Origin: a virus
Taxonomy: Duplodnaviria; Heunggongvirae; Uroviricota; Caudoviricetes
Direction: 5' to 3' (one strand)
DNA: 12,579 nucleotides
IMG/VR virus record: IMGVR_UViG_3300014625_000033
Shown here: piece by piece, positions 1-10,217 of the stretch
Layout of the letters: each line of letters starts with the position of its first letter
Numbering within the stretch: position 1 is the first letter of the stretch
Notes under the pieces: model-generated
Database searches by the model: none
What the model saw: the letters and a program-made list of their open reading frames with translations, nothing else
Told to the model about the DNA's origin: nothing
Position numbers and translations under genes: made by a program

Positions 1-174
1 CTAGATTAAATCAATCTTGATATCATAGCTTTCAAGACCAGTCATTTTTTCCCGTGCAGTAAACTGGATACTGGTAACTTCTTTCCCGGTCTTTTTCTTA
101 AGCTCAATGATTTTTTTTGTTATATATTCAGAAATATCTGCTTCTGTTTTTGTTTTTAACTCTTCAATGTTCAT
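1..174 (-). CDS. gnsB: GnsA/GnsB family small protein, 57 aa (MNIEELKTKTEADISEYI...FTAREKMTGLESYDIKIDLI)
   Basis: Translation closely resembles the E. coli GnsA/GnsB sequence as I recall it. Tandem ATGs at 177 and 174; SD AAGAGGA just upstream; stop TAG at 3..1. The ORF-track upstream extension is probably not translated. Confidence 0.75.
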   Translation of the reverse strand: MNIEELKTKTEADISEYITKKIIELKKKTGKEVTSIQFTAREKMTGLESYDIKIDLI

Positions 175-346
175 CATTTCCTCTTTTAGTCTGTTATGAC
201 TGTCCTGGTACACAGTAGTGTCAATTATATGGAGCAAACGTATAAAAGATAAGATGAAACATCGCAATAATCAACATACGACGGTCTAAATTTCACACAA
301 ACAGATAAAGATGATTATCATTTATTATCAATGCATTAGAATCAAA

Positions 347-577
347 TCAATTCAAGAGTCTCATTGCTGCTTCCAGAATTTCTTCTGAAGTTACATGTCG
401 ATCCGCTGCTACATAAATGACTTTATGATCTCCGGTCAGAGATGGAAACCCTGCAGCCATTACAGTGAGGTGTGTTGTTTCGCCATTTGGATATTCACGC
501 ATGATGGTGTTAACTCCGGTCATCACTGGCACTACCATTGCTGGTTCAGAGTTAAAAAAAACTATTATTTTTTTCAT
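347..577 (-). CDS. ynfN: Small prophage protein, 76 aa from ATG at 577 (MKKIIVFFNSEPAMVVPVMTGV...); probable YnfN-like gene by synteny
   Basis: Intact ORF between gnsB and cspI, as in K-12 Qin. The ORF-track start at 616 is GTG; the first ATG is at 577. Naming rests on synteny only; the K-12 protein is shorter (51 aa as I recall). Confidence 0.5.
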   Translation of the reverse strand: MKKIIVFFNSEPAMVVPVMTGVNTIMREYPNGETTHLTVMAAGFPSLTGDHKVIYVAADRHVTSEEILEAAMRLLN

Positions 578-620
578 AATGTTACCGTAATATGTGAGTA
601 TCCATCGACTAGACACTAAG

Positions 621-641
621 CAAAAAAGCTCCCGAAGGAGC
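621..641 (-). terminator. Intrinsic terminator-like hairpin GCTCC-cgaa-GGAGC, followed on the minus strand by a T6 run
   Basis: Perfect 5-bp GC-rich stem with 4-nt loop; plus strand reads caaaaaaGCTCCcgaaGGAGCcttcatttt, so it is flanked by A/T runs in both orientations. Lies about 200 nt downstream of the cspI stop and directly abuts the ynfN-like start. Confidence 0.5.
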
Positions 642-848
642 CTTCATTTTCACTTTCTTAAATCTAACGACAGATGGCTAACATTTAAGTATTGTGAAAT
701 ATTATCAAATGTAATCATCATTGATTTACAAAAGATACATTTTGCCCCGAAAGGATTTCTGTCAGAAACATCAAAAGATGATGTTCTATACTGAGAACCA
801 TGGCAACACGGGCATCTAAAGTGAATATGGTTTGTAATATTTTCTACC

Positions 849-1061
849 TCAAAGTGCCACTACATGAACAGCTGCAGGGCCTTTAGGTCCGTTCTCAATA
901 CCAAATTCGACTTCCTGATTCTCAGTTAACGTTTTGAAATCGTTGCTCTGAATAGCTGAGAAATGCACAAACACATCTTTGCTACCATCTTTCGGCGTGA
1001 TGAAACCAAAACCTTTTTCAGGGTTAAACCATTTCACTAAACCAGTCATTTTGTTAGACAT
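849..1061 (-). CDS. cspI: Cold-shock protein CspI (CspA family, S1-like cold-shock domain), 70 aa
   Basis: Translation [70 protein letters not shown] carries the RNP1/RNP2 motifs (KGFGFI, VFVHF) and matches CspI as I recall it. SD AAGG upstream of the tandem ATGs. Confidence 0.9.
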
Positions 1062-1204
1062 CATTATTACCTTTTGAAGAAGTTAGCCCTTGGGCAGAAT
1101 GGTCCGAAAAAAAATATCAGAAAGAAAAACCAACAAGGAAATCTCAAGAGGTACAAATAATAAAATTATAACAATGACTGCTTCAGATAATTTTGTAACA
1201 AACC

Positions 1205-1241
1205 AGAACACCATTAACGCATGATTAACCAACCATAGCAA
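1205..1241 (-). promoter_or_regulatory. Candidate cspA-type promoter for cspI: -35 TTGCTA (1241..1236), 17-bp spacer, -10 GTTAAT (1218..1213), AT-rich UP-like region upstream; predicts a 5'UTR of about 145 nt
   Basis: Minus-strand read: TTGCTAtggttggttaatcatgcGTTAAT. This resembles the cspA promoter architecture (TTGCAT / CTTAAT), and the predicted leader length matches the long leaders typical of cold-shock genes. Confidence 0.4.
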
Positions 1242-1424
1242 GGATTACTTTTGTAAAGAAAAACACACGAATGAAACAATAGCTTTATTTATTAATAAAA
1301 CGTGTCATTCTGTCTAATGACCTTTTATCTTACCCTTAAGATTTCAAGGATTTTGACTCATGGAAGAGTCCTTTTTATTTAAATTTCACATTCAGCGCTA
1401 AAAATAATCCGATTTAATATTAAT

Positions 1425-2448
<1,024 letters not shown>

Positions 2449-2452
<4 letters not shown>

Positions 2453-2760
2453 AGATATTTATGATGAGGACGCTCGTGCTTATTGGCAGGATTTTCAATC
2501 TTAAAGGAGTACTGATGCTGCAGATAAGACTCAACTTTTTCTGACAATTTTTCTGCTACTTCCAGGAAGACTTGCCGGACGCTCATTCTGGCTGCTGCCT
2601 CATAAAACTCCAGCGCAGCTCCTTCAACACGGTCCATGGCGACATCCAGGCCAAAAATTTCACCGTCAAAGCGTTCTTTGTCCTGTAAGGCTACAGTTAC
2701 CGTAACTTTATTCTCAAAATTACGGACTCCTTTCACAACCAGTTCATAGTCTTGAGTCAT
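2449..2760 (-). CDS. ydfR: YdfR-like protein (DUF1327) sitting between holin and endolysin, 103 aa
   Basis: Intact ORF with strong SD (GAGGAGAG) 4 nt after the holin stop; position matches K-12 Qin ydfR. Function unknown. Confidence 0.7.
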
Positions 2761-2764
2761 TGGA

Positions 2765-2980
2765 TTACTCTCCTCTCGCAGCCTTACGCCTGTCTTCTTT
2801 AATCTTGAAATAAAGATTTGTCAGATACGTCAGCATGCCAAATACCAGACTACCCAATACACCTATTGCCGCCCACTGTGAGGGCGTGACTTTATCGAGC
2901 AACTGTAAAAACCAGTAGCCAGCACTGCCTGCAGAGGTGCTGTAGGCGATGCCCGTTGTTAACTTATCCATGGATTTCAT
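2765..2980 (-). CDS. essQ: Class II pinholin (phage 21 S21-like) with dual-start motif MKSM, 71/68 aa
   Basis: [71 protein letters not shown] has two TM segments and matches S21 as I recall it. ATGs at 2980 and 2971; strong SD GGAGGTGAGG. The ORF-track upstream extension is not used. Confidence 0.85.
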
Positions 2981-3070
2981 AGCCTCACCTCCGCAGATAA
3001 CGGATGGTGTACACGGTTTGGTTCGAAGAAGGAAAGAAGTTACATTAGCGTAAGGCCCGAACATCTATTC

Positions 3071-3101
3071 AAAAAGAAAAACGCCAGCAATTATTCTGGC
3101 G
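3071..3101 (-). terminator. Intrinsic terminator downstream of the AraC-family gene: hairpin CGCCAG-(8 nt)-CTGGCG followed on the minus strand by a T-rich run (TTTTTCTTTTT)
   Basis: Plus strand reads aaaaagaaaaaCGCCAGcaattattCTGGCG. It sits between the cargo gene and the holin start. Confidence 0.5.
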
Positions 3102-3170
3102 TAGCTAAAAATATCGTATAATCTTACACTTCAAAAAATAACTTTATAAAATACCATCACATCATATCTT

Positions 3171-3884
3171 CTAAGAAAATCTTGATAAATATTGGTGCGG
3201 AGGCACACCAAAATATCCTCTAAAAACACTTACAAAATATGATGCATTGTCATACCCGCATATTCCCGCCACCTTGCCGACAGTATGGTTACTGTAGATC
3301 AATAATCTTTGCGCCATCATCATTCGTTCTTCAAGAATTAATTTACTAAACGATAATCCTTCGTCTTTTAATTTTCTTTTTAACAAACTCTCGCTCATAT
3401 ATAATCTTGAAGATATATCACAAAGTCTCCATGACGCAGAGATATCCGAGTGAATAATAGCCTTAACTTTACAACCTAAGCTATTAAGACTTCCGAACAA
3501 AAAACTTTGCACTATTTTCTCTGAAGATAAGACAGCAAGACATGCAAGTGATATTTGATTTCTAACTACATCCACGGTTTTGCTATCACAATTCAAGCAT
3601 GCAACCAAGTTCTTTAACAATGAAAAATCTTCACATTCTACTATCAAGTATGACGGATAAAACCTTCTTACAGAAAAAGGTGAGAGTGTGTAGTTTTTAA
3701 AGAAATCATTAACTGTTTTCTCCTCAACATCTACGATCATTAGATGATCTGTATTTGACGAAAAAAGATCTTTTAAATTGTATTCAATGAGGACAGCATT
3801 TCCTTTTTTAAACAAAATATCTTCTTTACCAATTCGGACACCAAACGAGTTCAACACCAAAATGATAGAACATATGTATGGCAT
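3171..3884 (-). CDS. AraC/XylS-family transcriptional regulator (AppY/Rns-like short type), 237 aa from ATG at 3884; markedly AT-rich cargo gene
   Basis: C-terminal double HTH typical of AraC/XylS (…SESLLKRKLKDEGLSFSKLILEERMMMAQRLL…VGKVAGICGYDNASYFVSVFRGYFGVPPHQYLSRF). SD AGGTGGA precedes the ATG at 3884; the ORF-track start at 3893 is GTG. Base composition is far lower in GC than the flanking phage genes. Confidence 0.8.
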   Translation of the reverse strand: MPYICSIILVLNSFGVRIGKEDILFKKGNAVLIEYNLKDLFSSNTDHLMIVDVEEKTVNDFFKNYTLSPFSVRRFYPSYLIVECEDFSLLKNLVACLNCDSKTVDVVRNQISLACLAVLSSEKIVQSFLFGSLNSLGCKVKAIIHSDISASWRLCDISSRLYMSESLLKRKLKDEGLSFSKLILEERMMMAQRLLIYSNHTVGKVAGICGYDNASYFVSVFRGYFGVPPHQYLSRFS

Positions 3885-4290
3885 ATTATCCACCTGATAT
3901 CATTGGGGTTACACCAGGTAAGTATAGGTGGAAAATCAATATTCGCCAGTTCAACAATAAGGAAAATCTCATTGCATCACAACTATAAAACCATGTGTTT
4001 AACTCACAAAAAACAAATCATTAAACTAATCTGTTATATTATAATAGCTGCGTGCAATAATAATATTATATGCTCTTAATATTCACTTGAAATATCTTCA
4101 TATAAAAACAGATTGAATAAAATCTTTTGGGGCTGGTATGTTTACCAACATTAAATTGCATCTCAATGTTTTCTTTAGCGTGAACAGGATTTTTATAAAA
4201 ACTGACACTATGAGCATCATAGCGTAGTTTTTACGATTGTAAATATCCTGCATACAGGAACTCATCACTTTCAGATGATATCGCATACAG

Positions 4291-5250
4291 TTAATTCACC
4301 ATCAGTCTTAGAGCCAGTTCTTCCGGATAGGGATCGAAGTAGTTCTGTGTAAGCAAGTAATCATTAGGATACTCACCCAGATAATGCTTCAGCAGAGTCA
4401 ACGGCGCAAGAAGAGGCAATGTGCCAAAGCGATAGTTAAGTATAACCTCGCTCAACTCTTTACGCTGGCGTGTACTTAAGTAATTACTAAAATACCCCTG
4501 TATATGCATCAGCACATTCGTGTGATTTTTACGTGATGCTGGTTTTCTGAGAATCGCCATCAGATTATCACGATACACCTCAAAGTATGATTCAAGGTCC
4601 GCCCACTCGTGTATTGCAGCCACAAATGGTCCCATATCTTTATAGCCTGCCTGGCTATGCGCCAACAACTGAAGCTTATAACGACTATGAAAAGCTAATA
4701 ACTCTCTTCTTGATAATTTCTCCTTGTAAAGGTGATTGAGCTCATGCAAAGCAAAAACTCTTTCAATAAAATTCTCACGAAGCACTGGATCATGTAATCG
4801 CCCATCCTCTTCAACCGGTAGCCAGGAAAACTTTTCCATCAAAGTGCTCGTAAATAGTCCCACTCCATCTTTACGACCTCGATTACCATTTTCATCATAG
4901 ACACGCACGCGCTCCATGCCACAGCTGGGAGATTTAGCACAAACCACAAACCCCGATACATCCTTTAATTTGTCCATATAAGAACGACTAAACTCTGTCA
5001 TTCTCTCTGTCACATCCTCATTCTGGTCGTGGCTGAAACACATCCGTATATTTCCTTGCTTCGAGCGCACAAGTCGTAGAGCAGGACGCGGAACTGGCAG
5101 CCCTATAGCCATTTCCGGACATACTGGTCTGAATGTTACCCATTCCACTAATTTGTCCATTAAAAAGTCATCTCTTTTGTGACCACCATCAAAACGAACA
5201 GCAGAACCGCCCAAACAACCGCTGATCCCAATCACAGGTTTTTTTATCAT
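4291..5250 (-). CDS. DUF523 (TudS-like, putative [4Fe-4S] thio-nucleobase desulfurase fold) fused to DUF1722 (YbgA-like), 319 aa
   Basis: N-terminus MIKKPVIGISGCLGGSAVRFDGGHK with further conserved Cys in PVCPEM and VVCAKSPSCG matches the DUF523/TudS pattern; the C-terminal half resembles DUF1722/YbgA. Strong SD GGGGGAGGA before the ATG at 5250. Confidence 0.75.
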   Translation of the reverse strand: MIKKPVIGISGCLGGSAVRFDGGHKRDDFLMDKLVEWVTFRPVCPEMAIGLPVPRPALRLVRSKQGNIRMCFSHDQNEDVTERMTEFSRSYMDKLKDVSGFVVCAKSPSCGMERVRVYDENGNRGRKDGVGLFTSTLMEKFSWLPVEEDGRLHDPVLRENFIERVFALHELNHLYKEKLSRRELLAFHSRYKLQLLAHSQAGYKDMGPFVAAIHEWADLESYFEVYRDNLMAILRKPASRKNHTNVLMHIQGYFSNYLSTRQRKELSEVILNYRFGTLPLLAPLTLLKHYLGEYPNDYLLTQNYFDPYPEELALRLMVN

Positions 5251-5442
5251 TTCCTCCCCCTTGACTAATTCATTAACACATAAACTTTGTAGTGCACGGA
5301 CTAAATTGCCTTTCTGGCTTCATCACTGACAATTTTTCTGTTATTGACTATTCCTAATATAGTAGGAAAGTTCTTTAAGTGATCGGTCGTACTCATCTAT
5401 CTTTCATACTTACTCTCAACTATCAAAAGTACAGGATTTATT

Positions 5443-5967
5443 ATGAAGTTATGGCCTGTGTTGACTGGCATTGCACTCTCTTTCACTCTTATAGCATGTA
5501 AGGCCCCGACACCACCTAAAGGTGTGCAGCCGATTACAAATTTTGACGCCAACCGCTACCTCGGAAAATGGTATGAAATAGCTCGCCTCGAGAACTGGTT
5601 CGAACGTGGTCTGGAACAGGTCAGCGCTACTTATGAAAAACGGAACGACGGAGGGATTCGCGTACTTAACCGTGGATACGATCCAACGAAAAACAAATGG
5701 AGCGAGAGCGAAGGTAAAGCATACTTTACTGGAGATACTAAAACTGCAGCGTTGAAAGTTTCGTTTTTTGGCCCCTTCTATGGTGGCTATAATGTAATCA
5801 AACTGGATGATGAGTATAAGTATGCTCTTGTCAGTGGTCCGAACAGAGAATACCTATGGATTCTGGCAAGGACCCAAACTATTCCAGATAATGTAAAAGC
5901 AGACTATGTGCGTACCGCTCAAAAGTTGGGATTCAATGTCAATGAACTATTATGGGTTAAACAATAA
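5443..5967 (+). CDS. blc: Bacterial lipocalin (Blc family) outer-membrane lipoprotein, 174 aa
   Basis: Lipoprotein signal with lipobox LIAC, then lipocalin motifs (FDANRYLGKWYEIARLENWFERG; KVSFFGPFYGGYNVIKLD; YLWILARTQ), nearly collinear with E. coli Blc as I recall it. SD AGGA 7 nt upstream. Transcribed opposite to all flanking phage genes. Confidence 0.85.
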   Translation: MKLWPVLTGIALSFTLIACKAPTPPKGVQPITNFDANRYLGKWYEIARLENWFERGLEQVSATYEKRNDGGIRVLNRGYDPTKNKWSESEGKAYFTGDTKTAALKVSFFGPFYGGYNVIKLDDEYKYALVSGPNREYLWILARTQTIPDNVKADYVRTAQKLGFNVNELLWVKQ

Positions 5968-5995
5968 AATCCCCACCCGAAATGATACTTATTAG

Positions 5996-6022
5996 AAAAA
6001 AACCAGCCTTTGGGGAGGCTGG
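5996..6022 (-). terminator. Intrinsic terminator (candidate tR') downstream of the Q gene: minus strand CCAGCC-tccccaaa-GGCTGG followed by T7
   Basis: Plus strand reads aaaaaaaCCAGCCtttggggAGGCTGG. It lies about 100 nt downstream of the Q stop, where lambdoid phages place PR'/qut/tR'. It also lies just downstream of the convergent blc-like gene. Confidence 0.55.
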
Positions 6023-6122
6023 CTAAATCAGGAAACAAGCTGTTATATGATAATAACTACGTTGCGATTCCAACATTTAAAATGTTAGACTAATGAAAAT
6101 CAGACAGCAACTTTTCCTTTAA
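6023..6122 (-). promoter_or_regulatory. Candidate late promoter PR' / qut region between Q and the terminator
   Basis: Positional inference from lambdoid architecture. Minus strand contains TTGGAA-(17-18 nt)-CATATA-like elements, but I could not pick a single convincing -35/-10 pair. Confidence 0.3.
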
Positions 6123-6500
6123 TTATTTCGAACAATCAGCATCCATCTCCAATCGGAGATCCAACACCATCAGCATGCCCTCCACTACGCCCTCAGCTTT
6201 CTGGAGCATCCTGCCAACCCAACAATCAGATCGCCCATGCTTACGTGCAAGCGCCATAAAAGTCATGCCGCCGACATAATAGTCCACCAATAAATCATGT
6301 AAATCGCTGTTGTTTTTTTTCAGGCGAGCCATACATTCACAAATGATCATCGCGTCATCGTCACAGCATTGCGGACGAGATCTTACTTTTGAAGGAATTA
6401 ATCCCTTAAAACCGGCGGCAATGGACGACCAGGTCACATCTTCATGATTATTAGCCGCCCATGCCCCCCAACGCTCAAGAACCATCTGAATATCACGCAT
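6123..6500 (-). CDS. quuQ: Late-gene antiterminator Q (phage 82 / QuuD family), 125 aa from ATG at 6500
   Basis: [63 protein letters not shown]... matches the QuuD/QuuQ sequence as I recall it, including the Cys-rich zinc motif. SD GGAG precedes the ATG at 6500; the ORF-track start at 6515 is TTG. Confidence 0.85.
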
Positions 6501-6517
6501 CAACTTACTCCACAAAA

Positions 6518-7522
6518 TTAGGCCAGCACACCAATTGCCAGCGCGCGATCGATAAATCGAAAAATCAGCTCCAGTTGGGAGCCATACTTCTCTTCAAATG
6601 CCACGGTATCCGTATGCAACTCGTCGTGATGCTTTCTGCACAAAGGCAAAACAAAGAGATCATGTGCTTTGGTTCCCATTCCGCCCTGCCCGTGACCAAT
6701 CAGATGATGCGGATCGTCGGCTGGCATACCGCAGCAAGCACACGGCTGTGTCTTAACCCAGCGTGTGTATTTCTCCTTAACCCACCGGTGACGTTTAGGC
6801 AGCTTCATGAAAGATTCCGGAGACTCTGGATCAACGGTGATGCTTACCACCGTCTTTTCCTGTGATGGGTTTTGTTGCTGGTGGGCGTGAGGCAACGGTG
6901 CAAGATTTTTTGTGCGCTGTTTCAATATGCTGGTGGCGGTCTGCTCTCCCGGTACGATGTCGCTTTCGCGGTACACCGAGCAGATTTTTTCCGCTGGTAA
7001 TCCCAGCGAGCGACGTAATACCGCTTCCGGTAGCGCGTCCGCCAGCTGATTGCGGACCGCCCACCAGGATAATTCAGCCAGAGATAATTCACGCTCCTGC
7101 GTACCGCTTATTGCGTGACCGATGACGTCAATCATCCATGCTGACAGGTTTTGATGAGCAAGTTGCTCGAGTGATTCGGATGTCTGGTCACGCAGCTGGT
7201 TGTCGCAGTGCCAGCACAACACCATTGCGCCGGTACCATATCGGTGAATAACGGTTTCGCTGTGATGATAATCGCCGTGTGGCCACTGGCAGGATTTAAT
7301 ATGGCGCAACAGCCAGTCAGACAATGCACCAGCACCACCAGCAGCACGAATTACCCGTGCGTTACTGAAAAACGGCAGCAATGTTTTGTCTTCCACCAGC
7401 GGCTGGCGAACGGCAGGAACGACCCCGGACGGCAGATTACGCATGCTTTTCGGTTCCGGCTCCACCAGTACCCGGGTATTGTGGAATACCGGCATGGATT
7501 CACGGCCCGGCTTAACGACCAC
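6518..7522 (-). CDS. ydfU: YdfU-like DUF968 protein with C-terminal HNH-like Cys/His motif, 334 aa (GTG at 7522; alternative ATG at 7495)
   Basis: C-terminus [22 protein letters not shown]...[10 protein letters not shown] has CxxC...HH...C..HH spacing typical of HNH nucleases. Position between rem and Q matches K-12 Qin. Confidence 0.75.
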
Positions 7523-7772
7523 CAGCCCGAGTTCCGGTATCCCTGGTGTCGATAGCCTTCCAGCGTTCGAATATCTTCACTCGATTAACGCTAAGCGCTC
7601 GCTGATCAACCGCGCCACCTTCATATGTGACACGCTGAACATCGATGTTCGGGCGCTCTTTCAAAGCCCAGAATGCTTCAGTGATTAATATCGTCGCCTG
7701 CTCCTGTGTCATTCCTGGTCGACATATCCAGGCATCCAGAGCCTCACGAGCCTGTTCAGGAGTGATTTTCAT
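7512..7772 (-). CDS. rem: Rem-like small protein, 86 aa
   Basis: ATG at 7772; translation MKITPEQAREALDAWICRPGMTQEQATILITEAFWALKERPNIDVQRVTYEGG... Synteny with K-12 Qin rem. It overlaps both neighbours (dicC-like 3' end and ydfU 5' end). Confidence 0.6.
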   Translation of the reverse strand: MKITPEQAREALDAWICRPGMTQEQATILITEAFWALKERPNIDVQRVTYEGGAVDQRALSVNRVKIFERWKAIDTRDTGTRAGGR

Positions 7773-7983
7773 TGTTCAACCGCCCCGCCCGCTTCGTCTT
7801 ACGATATTCGTCATAAACTTTGGGATCATACTGAAGCTCCCCGCCAGATGCCTCCTGTAGACGCATCGCGCGACCTTCAGGAACCAGTATCCCCCAAGCA
7901 GCAACACTTGCCAGTCTCACTCCTGCGGCATTGGCAAGCTTTGTTTTGCTGCCAAAAAAAGTAATTGCGTCAACTTTAAGCAT
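7756..7983 (-). CDS. dicC: Cro-like regulator DicC (YdaS/DicC family), 75 aa from ATG at 7983
   Basis: Small ORF divergent from the dicA-like repressor across an operator-containing intergenic region; SD AGAGGGGG; length about 76 aa as for DicC. Identification is by position, size and partial sequence recall. Confidence 0.7.
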   Translation of the reverse strand: MLKVDAITFFGSKTKLANAAGVRLASVAAWGILVPEGRAMRLQEASGGELQYDPKVYDEYRKTKRAGRLNNENHS

Positions 7984-7996
7984 CAAAGCCCCCTCT

Positions 7997-8014
7997 TGTT
8001 AGACTTTTCTAACA
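7997..8014. promoter_or_regulatory. Operator-like palindrome TGTTAGA-cttt-TCTAACA in the dicC/dicA divergent promoter region
   Basis: Perfect 7-bp inverted repeat with 4-bp spacer, 14 nt from the dicC-like start codon; the same half-sites recur downstream of dicA (8507..8526). Confidence 0.55.
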
Positions 8015-8063
8015 TTATTGTGCGCGGGATACCTAAGTCAAGAAAAATTAGAATTACCTAACT

Positions 8064-8471
8064 ATGGATACAAGAACCCTAGGCCAGCGAGTTCTGGCGC
8101 GACGAAAAGAATTACGCTTAACACAACGAGAAGCTGCGCGCCTCGCTGGAGTTGCTCACGTCACAATTTCACAATGGGAAAGAGACGAAACCCAGCCAGT
8201 CGGAAAACGATTGTTTGCTTTAGCGGATGCTCTGAAGTGCTCACCTACATGGCTAATGTTTGGTGACGAAGACAAGGCACCAGTGCCTGCACAAGAACTT
8301 CATGTGGAAACAGAGCTAACTCCCAACCACAAAGAATTGATCGAATTATTCGATGCTCTTCCATCTTCCGAGCAGGAAGCCTTGCTGTCTGAAATGCGCG
8401 CAAGAGTAGAAAACTTCAACAAACTCTTCGAAGAAATGCTTAAAGCGCGTAAAAATAAATCAATAAAATAA
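8064..8471 (+). CDS. dicA: DicA-type prophage repressor (HTH_XRE / cI-like), 135 aa
   Basis: N-terminal HTH (LTQREAARLAGVAHVTISQWER) and the segment KRLFALADALKCSPTWLMFGDEDK...NFNKLFEEMLKAR resemble DicA as I recall it. Weak or absent SD suggests a near-leaderless mRNA, like lambda cI from PRM. Confidence 0.85.
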   Translation: MDTRTLGQRVLARRKELRLTQREAARLAGVAHVTISQWERDETQPVGKRLFALADALKCSPTWLMFGDEDKAPVPAQELHVETELTPNHKELIELFDALPSSEQEALLSEMRARVENFNKLFEEMLKARKNKSIK

Positions 8472-8506
8472 CATTCTTTTCAAGTGATTAGTTGCGCCCA
8501 CTCTTT

Positions 8507-8526
8507 TTGTTAGATCAATCTAACAA
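8507..8526. promoter_or_regulatory. Second operator-like palindrome TTGTTAGA-tcaa-TCTAACAA upstream of the ydfA-dicB operon; degenerate third copy at about 8544..8560 (TGTTAG-N5-TCTAAA)
   Basis: 8-bp perfect inverted repeat with the same half-site as 7997..8014, located between the dicA stop and ydfA. Consistent with repressor control of the dicB operon promoter. Confidence 0.55.
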
Positions 8527-8639
8527 AAAACACTTGCCTCTCGTGTTAGGTTATTCTAAATTACTTTCCATCAAGACACCGCACGGTGTTCTCAGCAAAC
8601 AGTTCCGCGACCCCGGCGTTAAGGGGAAATGAGGTCAGC

Positions 8640-8792
8640 ATGGATACTATCGATCTTGGCAACAGCGAATCTCTGGTATGTGGCGTGTTCCCCAACCAGG
8701 ACGGTACGTTCACCGCGATGACATATACCAAAAGCAAAACGTTTAAAACCGAATCTGGCGCGCGTTGCTGGTTAGCCAGAAACACTGACTGA
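8640..8792 (+). CDS. ydfA: YdfA-like small protein (DUF1391), 50 aa from ATG at 8640
   Basis: MDTIDLGNSESLVCGVFPNQDGTFTAMTYTKSKTFKTESGARCWLARNTD; SD GAGG 5 nt upstream. The ORF-track start at 8586 is GTG and lacks an SD. Confidence 0.7.
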   Translation: MDTIDLGNSESLVCGVFPNQDGTFTAMTYTKSKTFKTESGARCWLARNTD

Positions 8793-9169
8793 TGAGGCTG
8801 ACGATGGAATTTAAAGATTTACCGTCTGATGTACAGAAAACAGCAGCTCATACATTGCATTCTGTGCTGCGAGAAATCGGGAAAGATATTGCAAGCGAGC
8901 CAGCAAAAGATCTGGCCCGGAAAATCAAGACCGCTTTCGTTGAGCTTTGTAATGTTGGCACTGACTCTGAAACTGTCGAGACCAAGACCGTAAGTTCACC
9001 AATATTCTCACTTGAGCCAGGCGTATTATCAGGTGAAATATGCACCGAGATTTCCAGCGAACTGCTTCCGGTAATACGAGAAGCAATTTGCCGTCGCGGT
9101 TTGGATGGAAGTTACGATCATGACGTCCTGCAAGTTCTCAGGACAATGGTGACTTCACTGGGGATTTGA
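8792..9169 (+). CDS. YdfB/YdfC-region hypothetical protein, 125 aa (alternative start ATG 8804 with SD GAGG, 121 aa)
   Basis: Intact ORF; ATG 8792 overlaps the ydfA stop (TGATG). K-12 has two short ORFs (ydfB, ydfC) here; this looks like a single longer reading frame. Confidence 0.55.
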   Translation: MRLTMEFKDLPSDVQKTAAHTLHSVLREIGKDIASEPAKDLARKIKTAFVELCNVGTDSETVETKTVSSPIFSLEPGVLSGEICTEISSELLPVIREAICRRGLDGSYDHDVLQVLRTMVTSLGI

Positions 9170-9338
9170 TCCCTGCGTCCTCTAACCTTTTGATATAGCG
9201 GTCCTCCAAGAAGCGGTAAATTTTGTCGAAATCATCTTTCCCCTCTGGTTTATTCAGAGGATTACAGGACCCGTAAGTAGCGGCATACATTTCAACCGTT
9301 TTATCAAAAATATAAGAGACAAATTCTTCTTTAGTCAT
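9138..9338 (-). CDS. Small hypothetical protein, 66 aa (MTKEEFVSYIFDKTVEMYAATYGSCNPLNKPEGKDDFDKIYRFLEDRYIKRLEDAGIKSPVKSPLS), antisense to the dicB operon
   Basis: ATG at 9338 with good SD (AAGAAGGA, 7-nt spacing). Hydrophilic, non-repetitive sequence. Its 3' end overlaps the upstream + strand CDS by 32 nt. No homolog recognised. Confidence 0.4.
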   Translation of the reverse strand: MTKEEFVSYIFDKTVEMYAATYGSCNPLNKPEGKDDFDKIYRFLEDRYIKRLEDAGIKSPVKSPLS

Positions 9339-9613
9339 ATAGATTTCCTTCTTGGTTATTCGGAATAAGAAGGATACCACCTCGCCTGACGTGGTTAAAA
9401 GCAGGCACACAACACGAAAGCGCACGGCGAAGTTCGTCTCACTGTACAGTGTCGTTAAATTTAATTCGACCGTGCGCTTCCGGTTGTGGCAACCCGCGAA
9501 ATGGCGCGGCGGTAAGTATGGCGGGGTTATTCCTTCCCCGTTGAGGACACCGAGTTGTCAGGTTGACCATACGCTTAAGTGACAACCCCGCTGCAACGCC
9601 CTCTGTTATCAAT

Positions 9614-9671
9614 TTTCTGGTGACGTTTGGCGGTATCAGTTTTACTCCGTGACTGCTCTGCCGCCGTTTTT
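9614..9671 (+). ncRNA. dicF: DicF small regulatory RNA (Hfq-dependent, represses ftsZ translation)
   Basis: Sequence TTTCTGGTGACGTTTGGCGGTATCAGTTTTACTCCGTGACTGCTCTGCCGCCGTTTTT matches the E. coli DicF sequence I recall almost base for base, including the terminal hairpin and U-tract. Confidence 0.9.
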
Positions 9672-9840
9672 AAAGTGAATTTTGTGATGCGGTGAATGCG
9701 GCTAAGCGCACGCGGAACAGTTAAAACCAAAAACAGTGTTATGGGTGGATTCTCTGTATCCGGCGTTAATTGTTAACTGGTTAACGTCACCTGGAGGCAC
9801 CAGGCACTGCATCACAAAATTCATTGTTGAGGACGCGATA

Positions 9841-10029
9841 ATGAAAACGTTATTACCAAACGTTAATACGTCTGAAGGTTGTTTTGAAATTGGTGTCACT
9901 ATCAGTAACCCTGTATTTACTGAAGATGCCATTAACAAGAGAAAACAAGAACGGGAGCTATTAAATAAAATATGCATTGTTTCAATGCTGGCTCGTTTAC
10001 GTCTGATGCCAAAAGGATGTGCACAATGA
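9841..10029 (+). CDS. dicB: Cell-division inhibitor DicB, 62 aa
   Basis: MKTLLPNVNTSEGCFEIGVTISNPVFTEDAINKRKQERELLNKICIVSMLARLRLMPKGCAQ matches DicB as I recall it. SD GAGGA 6 nt upstream. The ORF-track extension upstream (from 9736) is leader, not coding. Confidence 0.9.
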   Translation: MKTLLPNVNTSEGCFEIGVTISNPVFTEDAINKRKQERELLNKICIVSMLARLRLMPKGCAQ

Positions 10030-10217
10030 ATTCAGCATTTGCGCTTGTTCTGACAGTTTTTCTTGTTTCCGGAGAGCCAGTTGATATTGCAGTCAGTGTT
10101 CACAGGACAATGCAGGAGTGTATGACTGCAGCAACCGAACAGAAAATTCCCGGTAACTGTTACCCGGTCGATAAAGTTATTCACCAGGATAATATCGAAA
10201 TCCCGGCAGGTCTTTAA
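10026..10217 (+). CDS. ydfD: YdfD small membrane protein (reported lysis-inducing protein of Qin), 63 aa
   Basis: MNSAFALVLTVFLVSGEPVDIAVSVHRTMQECMTAATEQKIPGNCYPVDKVIHQDNIEIPAGL; N-terminal TM segment. Its ATG overlaps the dicB stop (ATGA). Confidence 0.85.
   Translation: MNSAFALVLTVFLVSGEPVDIAVSVHRTMQECMTAATEQKIPGNCYPVDKVIHQDNIEIPAGL

What the first reader, a model, noticed from the sequence alone, without database searches (positions are those of the whole stretch)
5996..6500. Q antiterminator with candidate PR'-tR' unit; the late transcript must traverse 3 kb of cargo and a second terminator to reach the lysis genes
A QuuD-type Q gene is followed within about 100 nt by a strong intrinsic terminator on the same strand (hairpin + T7). 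That is the expected arrangement for a short terminated PR' transcript, read through only when Q modifies RNA polymerase. Here the lysis cassette is a further 3 kb downstream and another terminator (3071-3101) intervenes, so lysis-gene expression depends fully on Q-mediated read-through. This makes the cargo a Q-controlled locus analogous to stx.
Basis: partly seen in the sequence, partly recalled or inferred. Interest (0 to 1): 0.45.

Follow-up and report, generated by a model that had tools for sequence, protein, structure and literature searches.

The report
Prophage Q switch with displaced promoter

Summary
The window is a Qin-like defective E. coli prophage, with late genes on the minus strand. 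The physical observation holds. Q (6123-6500) is 86% identical to QuuD and belongs to the Q21/Q933W family. A strong hairpin plus T7 lies at 6024-5996, a second terminator at 3102-3071, and the S-ydfR-R-Rz lysis genes begin at 2980.

In every relative of this Q, including 933W, the late promoter carries TTTACG-WW-CGTAAAA, a 16-nt spacer and a -10 hexamer. A profile of 19 such promoters hits the window once, at 4244-4206 (E 3e-4), between ybgA and the AraC-like gene. Nothing matches in the gap after Q. That block is a conservation island against viable phage 1H12 (26/28 in a 50-77% region). K-12 DLP12 also has cargo between quuD and PR'.

Most likely PR' is at 4243-4216 and 3102-3071 acts as tR'. 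The AraC-like gene would then sit inside the terminated unit, with blc and ybgA outside Q control. The hairpin next to Q is homologous to the Stx-phage tR' (StxS 3' end) and probably ends the Q transcript. Nothing here has been tested experimentally, and interest is modest.

The parts
6123..6500 (-). Q antiterminator gene, 125 aa, Q21/Q933W family, QuuD-like
   Evidence: ORF. PF06530 full length, E 7e-51. Q21 PDB 6P18, E 5e-9. 86% identical to QuuD and 79% to 933W Q.
5996..6024 (-). T1: intrinsic terminator next to Q (9-pair hairpin plus T7). It is homologous to the Stx-phage tR' (StxS 3' end). It probably ends the Q (early-right) transcript and shields the convergent blc gene.
   Evidence: -14.9 kcal/mol, z -3.8. 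29/29 identical in 1H12. 42/54 identity, E 6e-6, to 933W 20929-20957. That site's function as tR' was mapped by Term-seq (PMC7547250).
6082..6110 (-). The best local sigma-70-like site is TTGCTG-17-TAACAT. If active it would give an RNA of about 80 nt ending at T1.
   Evidence: Approximate weight matrix, 99.98th percentile. Only 24/29 conserved in 1H12, with the -10 at 4/6. No family PR' motif here.
5443..5967 (+). blc outer-membrane lipocalin gene, a cargo gene antisense to the late strand
   Evidence: PF08212. NCBIfam Blc, 313 bits against a cutoff of 267.
4291..5250 (-). YbgA-family gene (2-thiouracil desulfurase/DUF523 domain plus DUF1722), a cargo gene upstream of the inferred PR'
   Evidence: Pfam PF04463 and PF08349.
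4207..4244 (-). Inferred Q-responsive late promoter PR' of the 933W type. The -35 TTTACA is at 4243-4238, inside the near-palindrome TTTACAATCGTAAA (4243-4230). The spacer is 16 nt and the -10 TATGAT is at 4221-4216. The predicted start is about A4209.
   Evidence: Only nhmmer hit of the family PR' profile, E 3.2e-4. The motif is unique in the window, with 0 matches in 200 shuffles. One copy in each of the 87 loci that reach this region. Best sigma-70 score on the late strand between Q and S. 26/28 conserved against 1H12 in a 50-77% region.
3171..3893 (-). AraC-family (YdeO/GadX-like) regulator gene, AT-rich. It lies between the inferred PR' and T2.
   Evidence: PF12833 and PF00165. Best NCBIfam match is YdeO, below its cutoff. 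GC 29-33%.
3071..3102 (-). T2: intrinsic terminator (7-pair stem, 8-nt loop, TTTTCTTTTT). It is the first strong terminator downstream of the inferred PR', so the functional equivalent of tR'.
   Evidence: Stem invariant in all AraC-carrying alleles although flanks are 76-87% identical. No other strong late-strand terminator between 4205 and 3102.
2765..2980 (-). S21-type holin (EssD/EssQ-like), with a dual-start MKSM motif
   Evidence: PF04971. Sequence.
1425..2760 (-). Rest of the lysis cassette: ydfR (DUF1327) 2449-2760, lysozyme 1919-2452, Rz-like DUF2514 1425-1922
   Evidence: Pfam. Annotation of the identical strain H2 locus.
7756..8471 (.). DicC (7756-7986, minus strand) and DicA (8064-8471, plus strand) immunity pair. 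The early-right transcript that would express Q should start here.
   Evidence: NCBIfam DicC and DicA above their cutoffs. Promoter-like site at 8041-8014 on the minus strand.

Best explanation
This is the late-gene switch of a Qin-like defective lambdoid prophage, built around a Q21/Q933W-family antiterminator.

Q (6123-6500, minus strand) is made from the DicA/DicC-controlled early-right transcript. That transcript ends at the hairpin plus T7 immediately after Q (T1, 6024-5996). T1 descends from a Stx-phage-type tR' but has lost its own PR'.

The promoter on which Q loads is most likely the 933W-type promoter at 4243-4216. It consists of TTTACAATCGTAAAA, a 16-nt spacer and TATGAT, with a start near 4209. 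It lies 1.9 kb downstream of Q, after the cargo genes blc (antisense) and ybgA.

Without Q, transcripts from this promoter would cover a leader of about 316 nt and the AraC-like gene, then stop at T2 (3102-3071). With Q bound, polymerase would read through T2 into S-ydfR-R-Rz.

What is shown: the genes, both terminators, the unique family promoter motif and its conservation pattern. What is inferred: promoter activity, Q loading at that site, and termination and read-through.
For: The Q family assignment rests.

In all 19 distinct non-window relatives, the region after Q aligns without gaps. These come from 933W, DLP12, other E. coli, Shigella, Trabulsiella, Pantoea, Citrobacter, Providencia and Xenorhabdus. 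The shared pattern is an A-rich stretch, then TTTACG-WW-CGTAAAA, 16 nt, a -10 hexamer and a conserved start region. A hairpin with a T run usually follows.

In 933W this region is the annotated pR'. A start at L108 position 1701 fits the 258-nt StxS transcript reported in PMC7547250.

A profile of those 19 regions hits the window only at 4244-4206 (E 3.2e-4), with nothing in 6122-6030. TTTACRWWYGTAAA occurs once in the window, against 0 matches in 200 shuffles. It occurs once in every one of the 87 loci that extend far enough. It is absent, even allowing one mismatch, from K-12 Qin, which has the same backbone and lysis genes but a different Q family.

The site is also the best sigma-70-like match on the late strand between Q and S in the window, in 1H12 and in IdasGreatGrand.

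Against 1H12 the promoter block is 26/28 identical (motif 14/14, -10 6/6), while its flanks are 50-77% identical. The candidate next to Q is 24/29 (-10 4/6) in an interval that is otherwise 93-100% identical.

There is precedent for cargo between Q and PR'. In K-12 DLP12, nmpC lies between quuD and a PR'-tR' that starts about 200 nt upstream of essD. In C. braakii L095, three reverse-oriented genes lie between them.

T2 is invariant across diverged alleles and is the first strong terminator after 4209.
Against: There is no transcript mapping or Q-dependence data for this element. The profile E-value is moderate (3e-4), so the argument rests mainly on the uniqueness and conservation of the motif.

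Window-type Q proteins differ from all relatives in a short segment, [14 protein letters not shown] against CSDG(H/Y)IGK(K/R)LQK. I infer that this segment is the DNA-recognition part, so their DNA specificity may have changed.

I could not identify a clear sigma-dependent pause element downstream of 4209. Unlike its relatives, this promoter has no terminator within about 100 nt.

The region next to Q does contain a fair sigma-70 match, and T1 is homologous to a genuine tR'. Other promoter-like sites closer to the AraC-like gene (4009-3982, 3982-3954) could mean that 4243 is just one promoter of that gene.
Confidence: 0.55

Rival explanations
1. PR' lies in the 100 nt between Q and the hairpin (TTGCTG-17-TAACAT, 6110-6082, start about 6075), and T1 (6024-5996) is its tR'. 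Q-modified polymerase then crosses blc (antisense), ybgA, the AraC-like gene and T2 to reach the lysis genes.
For: This is the canonical position directly after Q, as in lambda and 933W. The sigma-70 match is fair (99.98th percentile of my approximate matrix). A -10-like TGGAAT (TAGAAT in 1H12) lies at about +5 to +10, where a sigma-dependent pause element could sit. T1 is strong, 100% conserved and homologous to a mapped tR'. The altered segment of window-type Q could mean a new binding site.
Against: The site lacks the motif shared by every relative's late promoter. It is the least conserved part of its interval in viable phage 1H12, where the -10 becomes TAATGT. It falls below the scan tool's threshold. 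The family-type promoter is conserved elsewhere in the same phages. This model needs antisense transcription through blc.
Confidence: 0.2
2. The segment next to Q is a free-standing small-RNA gene. A constitutive promoter at 6110-6082 and T1 would produce an RNA of about 80 nt related to the 74-nt StxS, independent of Q. Late-gene control would still happen at 4243. This is compatible with the best explanation as an add-on.
For: 6085-5996 aligns with the 3' part of the 933W StxS region, including the terminator. The predicted length is close to the processed StxS (PMC7547250). The fold is stable (-24.1 kcal/mol, z -3.9).
Against: The rpoS-pairing seed of StxS is not kept: -8.6 kcal/mol, against -19.2 for StxS and -31.8 for DsrA at the same site. 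No Rfam family reaches its threshold. The promoter is poorly conserved. The RNA could equally be just the 3' end of the Q mRNA.
Confidence: 0.25
3. The 4243 promoter is simply the AraC-like moron's own promoter, with T2 as its terminator (promoter, gene, terminator). Q in this phage group loads elsewhere or at both sites.
For: Promoter-gene-terminator is the classic moron layout. The AraC module (4243-3071) has its own diverged alleles and a low GC content. T2 is lost together with the AraC-like gene in L074.
Against: The promoter is homologous specifically to the late promoters of this Q family. It tracks the Q family, not the lysis module or the prophage backbone. No other candidate carries the family motif.
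Confidence: 0.15

Closest known systems
Stx phage 933W/Sakai late region (Q933W, PR', StxS, tR', stx2, lysis genes)
   Same: The Q subfamily is the same (79% identity). The late promoter type is the same: TTTACGATCGTAAAA-16-TATCAT against TTTACAATCGTAAAA-16-TATGAT. T1 is homologous to the StxS terminator. In both, cargo and terminators lie between Q and S.
   Different: In 933W, PR' overlaps the 3' end of Q and the terminated transcript is a 258-nt non-coding RNA, with cargo (tRNAs, stx2) beyond tR'. In the window, PR' is 1.9 kb from Q and two cargo genes lie upstream of it. A regulator gene lies between PR' and the first terminator. The StxS rpoS seed is lost.
DLP12 cryptic prophage of E. coli K-12 (quuD, nmpC, PR'-tR', essD-rrrD-rzpD)
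   Same: This is the closest Q (86% identity). Cargo is inserted between Q and the family-type PR', with the gene next to Q oriented against Q. Phage 434B carries the DLP12 quuD-nmpC region in place of its own.
   Different: In DLP12, PR' is followed at once by a hairpin terminator, and PR' itself starts about 200 nt before essD. No gene lies inside the PR'-terminator unit. The cargo is a porin gene. There is no StxS-like terminator after quuD.
Phage 21 Q (Q21), whose antitermination complex structures are solved
   Same: Same Pfam family, with detectable sequence homology over residues 8-90. The expected mechanism is the same: Q binds a site in the late promoter, loads on sigma-paused polymerase and narrows the RNA exit channel (PMC6606751; 10.1101/651190).
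   Different: Q21 is 162 aa and binds two direct repeats, TGAGCA, between -35 and -10 (PMC6606751). The conserved element here is a near-palindrome overlapping the -35 hexamer. Whether it is the Q binding site is untested.
Phage lambda PR'-6S RNA-tR'
   Same: Same logic: a late promoter, a terminator, and Q-dependent read-through into S, R and Rz.
   Different: Lambda Q belongs to an unrelated protein family (PF03589; 10.1101/651190). In lambda, PR' is adjacent to Q and the terminated RNA is a short non-coding RNA of about 190 nt (that length is from my own knowledge).

Membership tests
Q21/Q933W-family antiterminator (Pfam PF06530) | Full-length match to the family profile | tested here: met
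   PF06530, residues 1-118 of 118 profile positions, E 6.9e-51, 171.6 bits against a cutoff of 26.
Q21/Q933W-family antiterminator (Pfam PF06530) | Homology to a member with a solved structure and a demonstrated mechanism (Q21) | tested here: met
   phmmer against PDB 6P18 and 6JNX, E 5.2e-9, residues 8-90. No structure was predicted here.
Q21/Q933W-family antiterminator (Pfam PF06530) | Gene lies at the end of the early-right operon, upstream of the lysis genes on the same strand | tested here: met
   Order dicC, ydaT' remnant, ydfU, Q, then S-R-Rz, all on the minus strand. The same order occurs in viable phages.
Q21/Q933W-family antiterminator (Pfam PF06530) | Antitermination activity of the protein | not testable with these tools
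   Needs in vivo or in vitro read-through assays.
Lambdoid Q-dependent late transcription unit (PR', Q binding element, sigma-dependent pause element, tR', late genes) | Late promoter with the element conserved in this Q subfamily (TTTACG-WW-CGTAAAA, 16 nt, -10 hexamer) | tested here: met
Met at 4243-4216.
Lambdoid Q-dependent late transcription unit (PR', Q binding element, sigma-dependent pause element, tR', late genes) | PR' immediately downstream of the Q gene | tested here: not met
   The family-type promoter is 1.88 kb from the Q stop. Only a weaker, poorly conserved sigma-70 match lies next to Q. DLP12 and C. braakii L095 also fail this feature, so it is typical but not obligatory.
Lambdoid Q-dependent late transcription unit (PR', Q binding element, sigma-dependent pause element, tR', late genes) | A -10-like sigma-dependent pause element in the first 25 nt or so of the transcript | tested here: inconclusive
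   Downstream of 4209 there are only partial -10-like hexamers (TATAAA at +13 to +18, AAAAAT at +16 to +21), and they are not consistently kept in L003 and L004. Downstream of 6075 there is TGGAAT/TAGAAT.
Lambdoid Q-dependent late transcription unit (PR', Q binding element, sigma-dependent pause element, tR', late genes) | Intrinsic terminator between PR' and the late genes | tested here: met
   T2 at 3102-3071 for PR' at 4243. T1 at 6024-5996 would serve a promoter next to Q.
Lambdoid Q-dependent late transcription unit (PR', Q binding element, sigma-dependent pause element, tR', late genes) | Q-dependent read-through | not testable with these tools
   Needs reporter or transcript assays with and without Q.
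StxS small RNA (PR'-tR' transcript of Stx phages) | Homologous 3' segment and terminator downstream of a short (144-aa type) Q | tested here: met
   42/54 identity, E 6e-6, collinear with Q. Alignment.
StxS small RNA (PR'-tR' transcript of Stx phages) | Made as a 258-nt PR' transcript that is processed to 74 nt | tested here: not met
   Only about 100 nt lie between Q and T1. The 933W-type PR' and the 5' part of the precursor, about 170 nt, are absent there.
StxS small RNA (PR'-tR' transcript of Stx phages) | Seed that pairs with the rpoS leader at the DsrA/RprA/ArcZ site | tested here: not met
   Duplex energy at rpoS -130 to -90 is -8.6 kcal/mol for the window, -19.2 for StxS and -31.8 for DsrA.
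stx-like Q-controlled cargo (genes transcribed only by read-through of tR') | Cargo lies downstream of PR' and of its terminator, on the late strand | tested here: not met
blc is on the opposite strand. blc and ybgA lie upstream of the family-type PR'. The AraC-like gene lies upstream of T2, not beyond it.

The most novel reading that the evidence does not exclude
In this widespread phage and prophage group, the 'short terminated PR' transcript' may have expanded into an mRNA of about 1.1 kb for an AraC/GadX-like regulator. A late promoter that is active in lysogens would then double as the expression signal for a lysogenic-conversion regulator. The regulator's terminator (T2) would be the Q-sensitive gate for lysis. 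The old tR' next to Q would survive as a separate StxS-like terminator or small-RNA unit. Window-type Q and its promoter motif may also have co-evolved: GRML with TTTACA, against GK(K/R)L with TTTACG.
Probability: 0.3. Interest if true: 0.5.

Novelty: new variant of a known kind. Interest (0 to 1): 0.3.

Why it matters
Q-dependent late switches are textbook biology, so the element itself is ordinary. The useful result is a correction. In the Q933W/QuuD subfamily, a conserved motif identifies the late promoter, and that promoter can sit kilobases from the Q gene (this window, DLP12, a C. braakii prophage). Assuming PR' lies just after Q therefore misassigns which cargo genes are Q-controlled.

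This arrangement is found in 952 of the 5426 complete E. coli genomes searched. There, blc and ybgA would be independent morons. A GadX/YdeO-like regulator would be tied to the late promoter, which would affect how prophage induction and host acid-stress or virulence regulation might be coupled. These statements are inferences that simple reporter assays could settle.

Tried and rejected
1. I first read the TGtTGGAAT element (6075-6067) as an extended -10 promoter. It fits better as a possible pause element for the 6110 candidate, and in any case it lacks support from homology.

2. I considered that 4176-4120 is a degenerate second copy of the 6120-5996 segment, which would mean a duplicated PR' leader. 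The local alignment score of 15.75 is below the mean of dinucleotide shuffles (19.0; 443 of 500 shuffles scored at least as high). The idea is rejected.

3. I recalled that the DLP12 small RNA IpeX might be a PR' transcript downstream of quuD. A review states that it is part of the nmpC transcript, on the other strand. The idea is dropped.

4. I first took the conserved AAGAGT/CATAGT hexamer, 3 nt after the -10, for the sigma-dependent pause element. The 258-nt StxS length places the 933W start inside it, so it is the start region and not a pause element.

5. Rfam finds only the cspA thermoregulator and DicF at gathering thresholds. Nothing meaningful appears at relaxed thresholds around T1.

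6. PADLOC finds no defence-system match for the cargo proteins.

7. L037 looked like an alternative cargo junction after GGAAT. It is an insertion of about 1.4 kb, probably an IS element.

8. The PatE paper (PMC3416394) could not be read. Cluster names for the AraC-like protein are generic. Any relation to PatE, PsrA or PsrB is therefore untested.

Full report
**Context.** The window is part of a Qin-like defective lambdoid prophage of E. coli. Rfam finds DicF at 9615-9666 (plus strand) and a cspA-type thermoregulator at 803-1208 (minus strand). NCBIfam identifies DicA (8064-8471, plus) and DicC (7756-7986, minus). Positions 1-7539 and 7538-10127 are 100% and 99.96% identical to two separate parts of the strain H2 chromosome, and the window lacks 5.47 kb that lies between them in H2.

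The late direction is the minus strand. In that direction the order is:
- ydfU (6518-7522)
- Q (6123-6500)
- a hairpin plus T7 (6024-5996)
- blc on the opposite strand (5443-5967)
- a YbgA-family gene (4291-5250)
- a 400-nt AT-rich spacer
- an AraC-family gene (3171-3893)
- a second terminator (3102-3071)
- an S21-type holin (2765-2980), ydfR, a lysozyme and Rz

No tRNA genes are present.

**Check of the observation.** Q is 125 aa and matches PF06530 over the whole profile (E 7e-51). It is 86% identical to DLP12 QuuD and 79% identical to 933W Q. It is a distant relative of Q21, whose structure is solved (E 5e-9). A preprint names this group the Q21/Q933W family (10.1101/651190).

The first hairpin folds at -14.9 kcal/mol (z -3.8, 0 of 200 shuffles as good). 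The second folds at -11.3 kcal/mol (z -2.5).

The complete Q-to-S arrangement is common. It covers at least 80% of the query in 952 of 5426 complete E. coli genomes. It is also present in 12 deposited phage genomes, including 1H12, Lambda_2E9 and IdasGreatGrand. In 80 IMG/VR loci with this Q allele, Q is always followed by the same hairpin, blc and ybgA wherever the contig is long enough.

**Where the late promoter is.** The best sigma-70-like site there is TTGCTG-17-TAACAT (6110-6082). It is below the scan tool's threshold but scores well in my own approximate weight matrix.

Comparison with relatives points elsewhere. I collected 23 loci from other species and 933W. Nineteen distinct regions downstream of Q align without gaps. 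They share an A-rich stretch, TTTACG-WW-CGTAAAA, 16 nt, a -10 hexamer and a conserved start region. In most, a GC-rich hairpin with a T run follows within about 60 nt.

In 933W this region is the annotated pR' at 20666-20693. A start at L108 position 1701 gives exactly the 258-nt distance to the Term-seq-mapped StxS 3' end reported for Sakai Stx phages (PMC7547250).

An nhmmer profile of these 19 regions, built without any window-type sequence, hits the window once, at 4244-4206 on the minus strand (E 3.2e-4). Nothing matches in 6122-6030.

The 14-mer TTTACRWWYGTAAA occurs once in the window, against 0 matches in 200 shuffles. It occurs once in each of the 87 fetched loci that reach this region. 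It does not occur, even with one mismatch, in the 21-kb K-12 Qin prophage. K-12 Qin shares the backbone and the lysis cassette but carries a Q of another family, so the motif tracks the Q family.

The site (TTTACA-16-TATGAT, 10 of 12 consensus matches) is also the top promoter-like match on the late strand between Q and S. This holds in the window, in 1H12 and in IdasGreatGrand.

**Conservation.** Between the window and phage 1H12, the 4243-4216 block is 26/28 identical (motif 14/14, -10 6/6). The spacer on either side of it is only 50-77% identical.

The opposite is true for the site next to Q. It is 24/29 identical (-10 4/6, becoming TAATGT) in an interval where Q is 94%, the adjacent leader 93% and the hairpin 100% identical.

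**Precedents.** Separation of Q from PR' by cargo is not unique to this element. In K-12 DLP12, the family-type PR' and its hairpin terminator lie at 577,196-577,279, with PR' starting about 200 nt upstream of essD. The reverse-oriented nmpC gene lies between them and quuD. In Citrobacter braakii L095, three reverse-oriented genes lie between Q and the motif.

**What the hairpin next to Q is.** The last 54 nt before and including the hairpin match the second 933W terminator (20929-20957) at 42/54 identity, E 6e-6, collinear with Q. Sy et al. mapped that site as tR', the 3' end of StxS. The hairpin is therefore most simply a descendant of a real tR'. Its partner promoter, together with the C-terminal tail of Q that overlaps it in 933W, is missing here.

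On the opposite strand the hairpin has no T run, so it is not a good terminator for blc.

If the 6110 site is active, it would produce an RNA of about 80 nt, similar in size to the 74-nt StxS. The StxS seed for the rpoS leader is not kept. Duplex energies at that site are -8.6 kcal/mol for the window RNA, -19.2 for StxS and -31.8 for DsrA as a positive control. No Rfam family matches.

**Model.**
- Shown: the genes, the two terminators, and the unique family-type promoter and its conservation.
- Inferred: Q is expressed from the DicA/DicC-controlled rightward transcript, which ends at T1.
- Inferred: RNA polymerase starting near 4209 transcribes a leader of about 316 nt and the AraC-like gene, then stops at T2. 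T2 is the first strong late-strand terminator after 4209 in the window and in both phages examined. Its stem is invariant across alleles whose flanks are 76-87% identical.
- Inferred: Q bound at the promoter loads onto the polymerase and carries it through T2 into S-ydfR-R-Rz. No promoter-like site lies between T2 and S.

Under this model blc and ybgA lie outside the late unit. The AraC-like gene is transcribed without Q, unlike stx2, which lies beyond tR'.

**Caveats.**
- No experimental data exist for this element.
- Window-type Q proteins differ from all relatives in one short segment, [14 protein letters not shown] against CSDG(H/Y)IGK(K/R)LQK. This difference co-occurs perfectly with TTTACA against TTTACG in the promoter. 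From the alignment with Q21 I infer that the segment is the turn and second helix of the DNA-binding motif, but I did not test this. It could reflect co-adaptation, or a changed specificity that would weaken my assignment. Linkage confounds the association.
- I could not identify a convincing sigma-dependent pause element after 4209.
- Other promoter-like sites closer to the AraC-like gene exist.

**Comparison with known systems and novelty.** The switch is a member of the Q21/Q933W family of late-control units and works like those of lambda, 933W and DLP12. Crossing cargo and several terminators is normal. In 933W the late transcript passes three annotated terminators, three tRNA genes, stx2AB and two more genes, about 5 kb in all, before S.

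Two things appear not to have been described for this group. PR' is 1.9 kb from Q, and a regulator gene lies between PR' and the first terminator. I rate this a variant of a known kind, of modest interest.

Noticed in passing
window 5996-6085 (minus strand): This segment is homologous to the 3' part of the Stx-phage small RNA StxS, including its terminator (42/54 identity). The seed that pairs with the rpoS leader is not conserved (-8.6 kcal/mol against -19.2 for StxS).
   Followed up: yes
window 7538-7539 junction: Compared with strain H2, the window lacks 5.47 kb. The missing stretch holds the 3' part of ydaT, a hypothetical gene, a DUF977 gene, an AIPR gene, hokD, rem, one more gene and the first 28 nt of ydfU. 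As a result Q lies only about 1.5 kb downstream of dicC, and ydfU is truncated at its 5' end.
   Followed up: partly
window 6212-6253 (minus strand; Q residues 87-100): All window-type Q proteins read [14 protein letters not shown] where every other relative reads CSDG(H/Y)IGK(K/R)LQK. This co-occurs perfectly with TTTACA against TTTACG in the late-promoter motif. It may reflect co-evolution of protein and DNA site, or simply linkage.
   Followed up: partly
L109 3697-3780 (K-12 MG1655 577,196-577,279): In DLP12 the family-type late promoter and hairpin terminator sit just upstream of essD (PR' starts about 200 nt before it), not next to quuD. The nmpC gene lies between them on the opposite strand.
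   Followed up: yes
window 4205-4225 (minus strand): An inverted repeat, ACGCTATGA-TGC-TCATAGTGT, followed by CAGTTTTTAT overlaps the -10 hexamer and start of the inferred PR'. As RNA from upstream it could terminate ybgA transcripts right at the promoter.
   Followed up: no
L015, L022, L074 (spacer after ybgA); L037 (after Q); L006, L010, L014 (cargo genes): Insertions, apparently IS elements, interrupt the region between Q and S in several prophage copies. L022 is hit right at the -10/start of the inferred PR'. In L074 an IS1 end replaces the AraC-like gene and T2. This may reflect selection to disable lysis-gene expression in cryptic prophages.
   Followed up: partly
window 3171-3893 and 3894-4290: The AraC-family protein is closest to YdeO, GadX and HilD, all below their family cutoffs. 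It lies in a region of 29-33% GC, which is typical of horizontally acquired regulators silenced by H-NS. Published prophage regulators PatE, PsrA and PsrB are of this kind, but the relation was not tested.
   Followed up: partly
window 4291-5250: The cargo protein fuses a 2-thiouracil desulfurase (DUF523) domain to DUF1722. By the NCBIfam match (PRK10167, 169 positions), the chromosomal YbgA corresponds only to the DUF1722 part. There is no PADLOC defence hit.
   Followed up: no
window 4098-4286 (minus strand): A 62-aa ORF overlaps the inferred PR' and its leader. It has no family match, and the region carries indels in 1H12, so it is probably not a gene.
   Followed up: partly
window 803-1208 (minus strand) and 9615-9666 (plus strand): A cspA-type thermoregulator 5' UTR lies ahead of the cspI-like gene (849-1064). 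The DicF small RNA gene is also present. Both are known features of Qin-type prophages.
   Followed up: no
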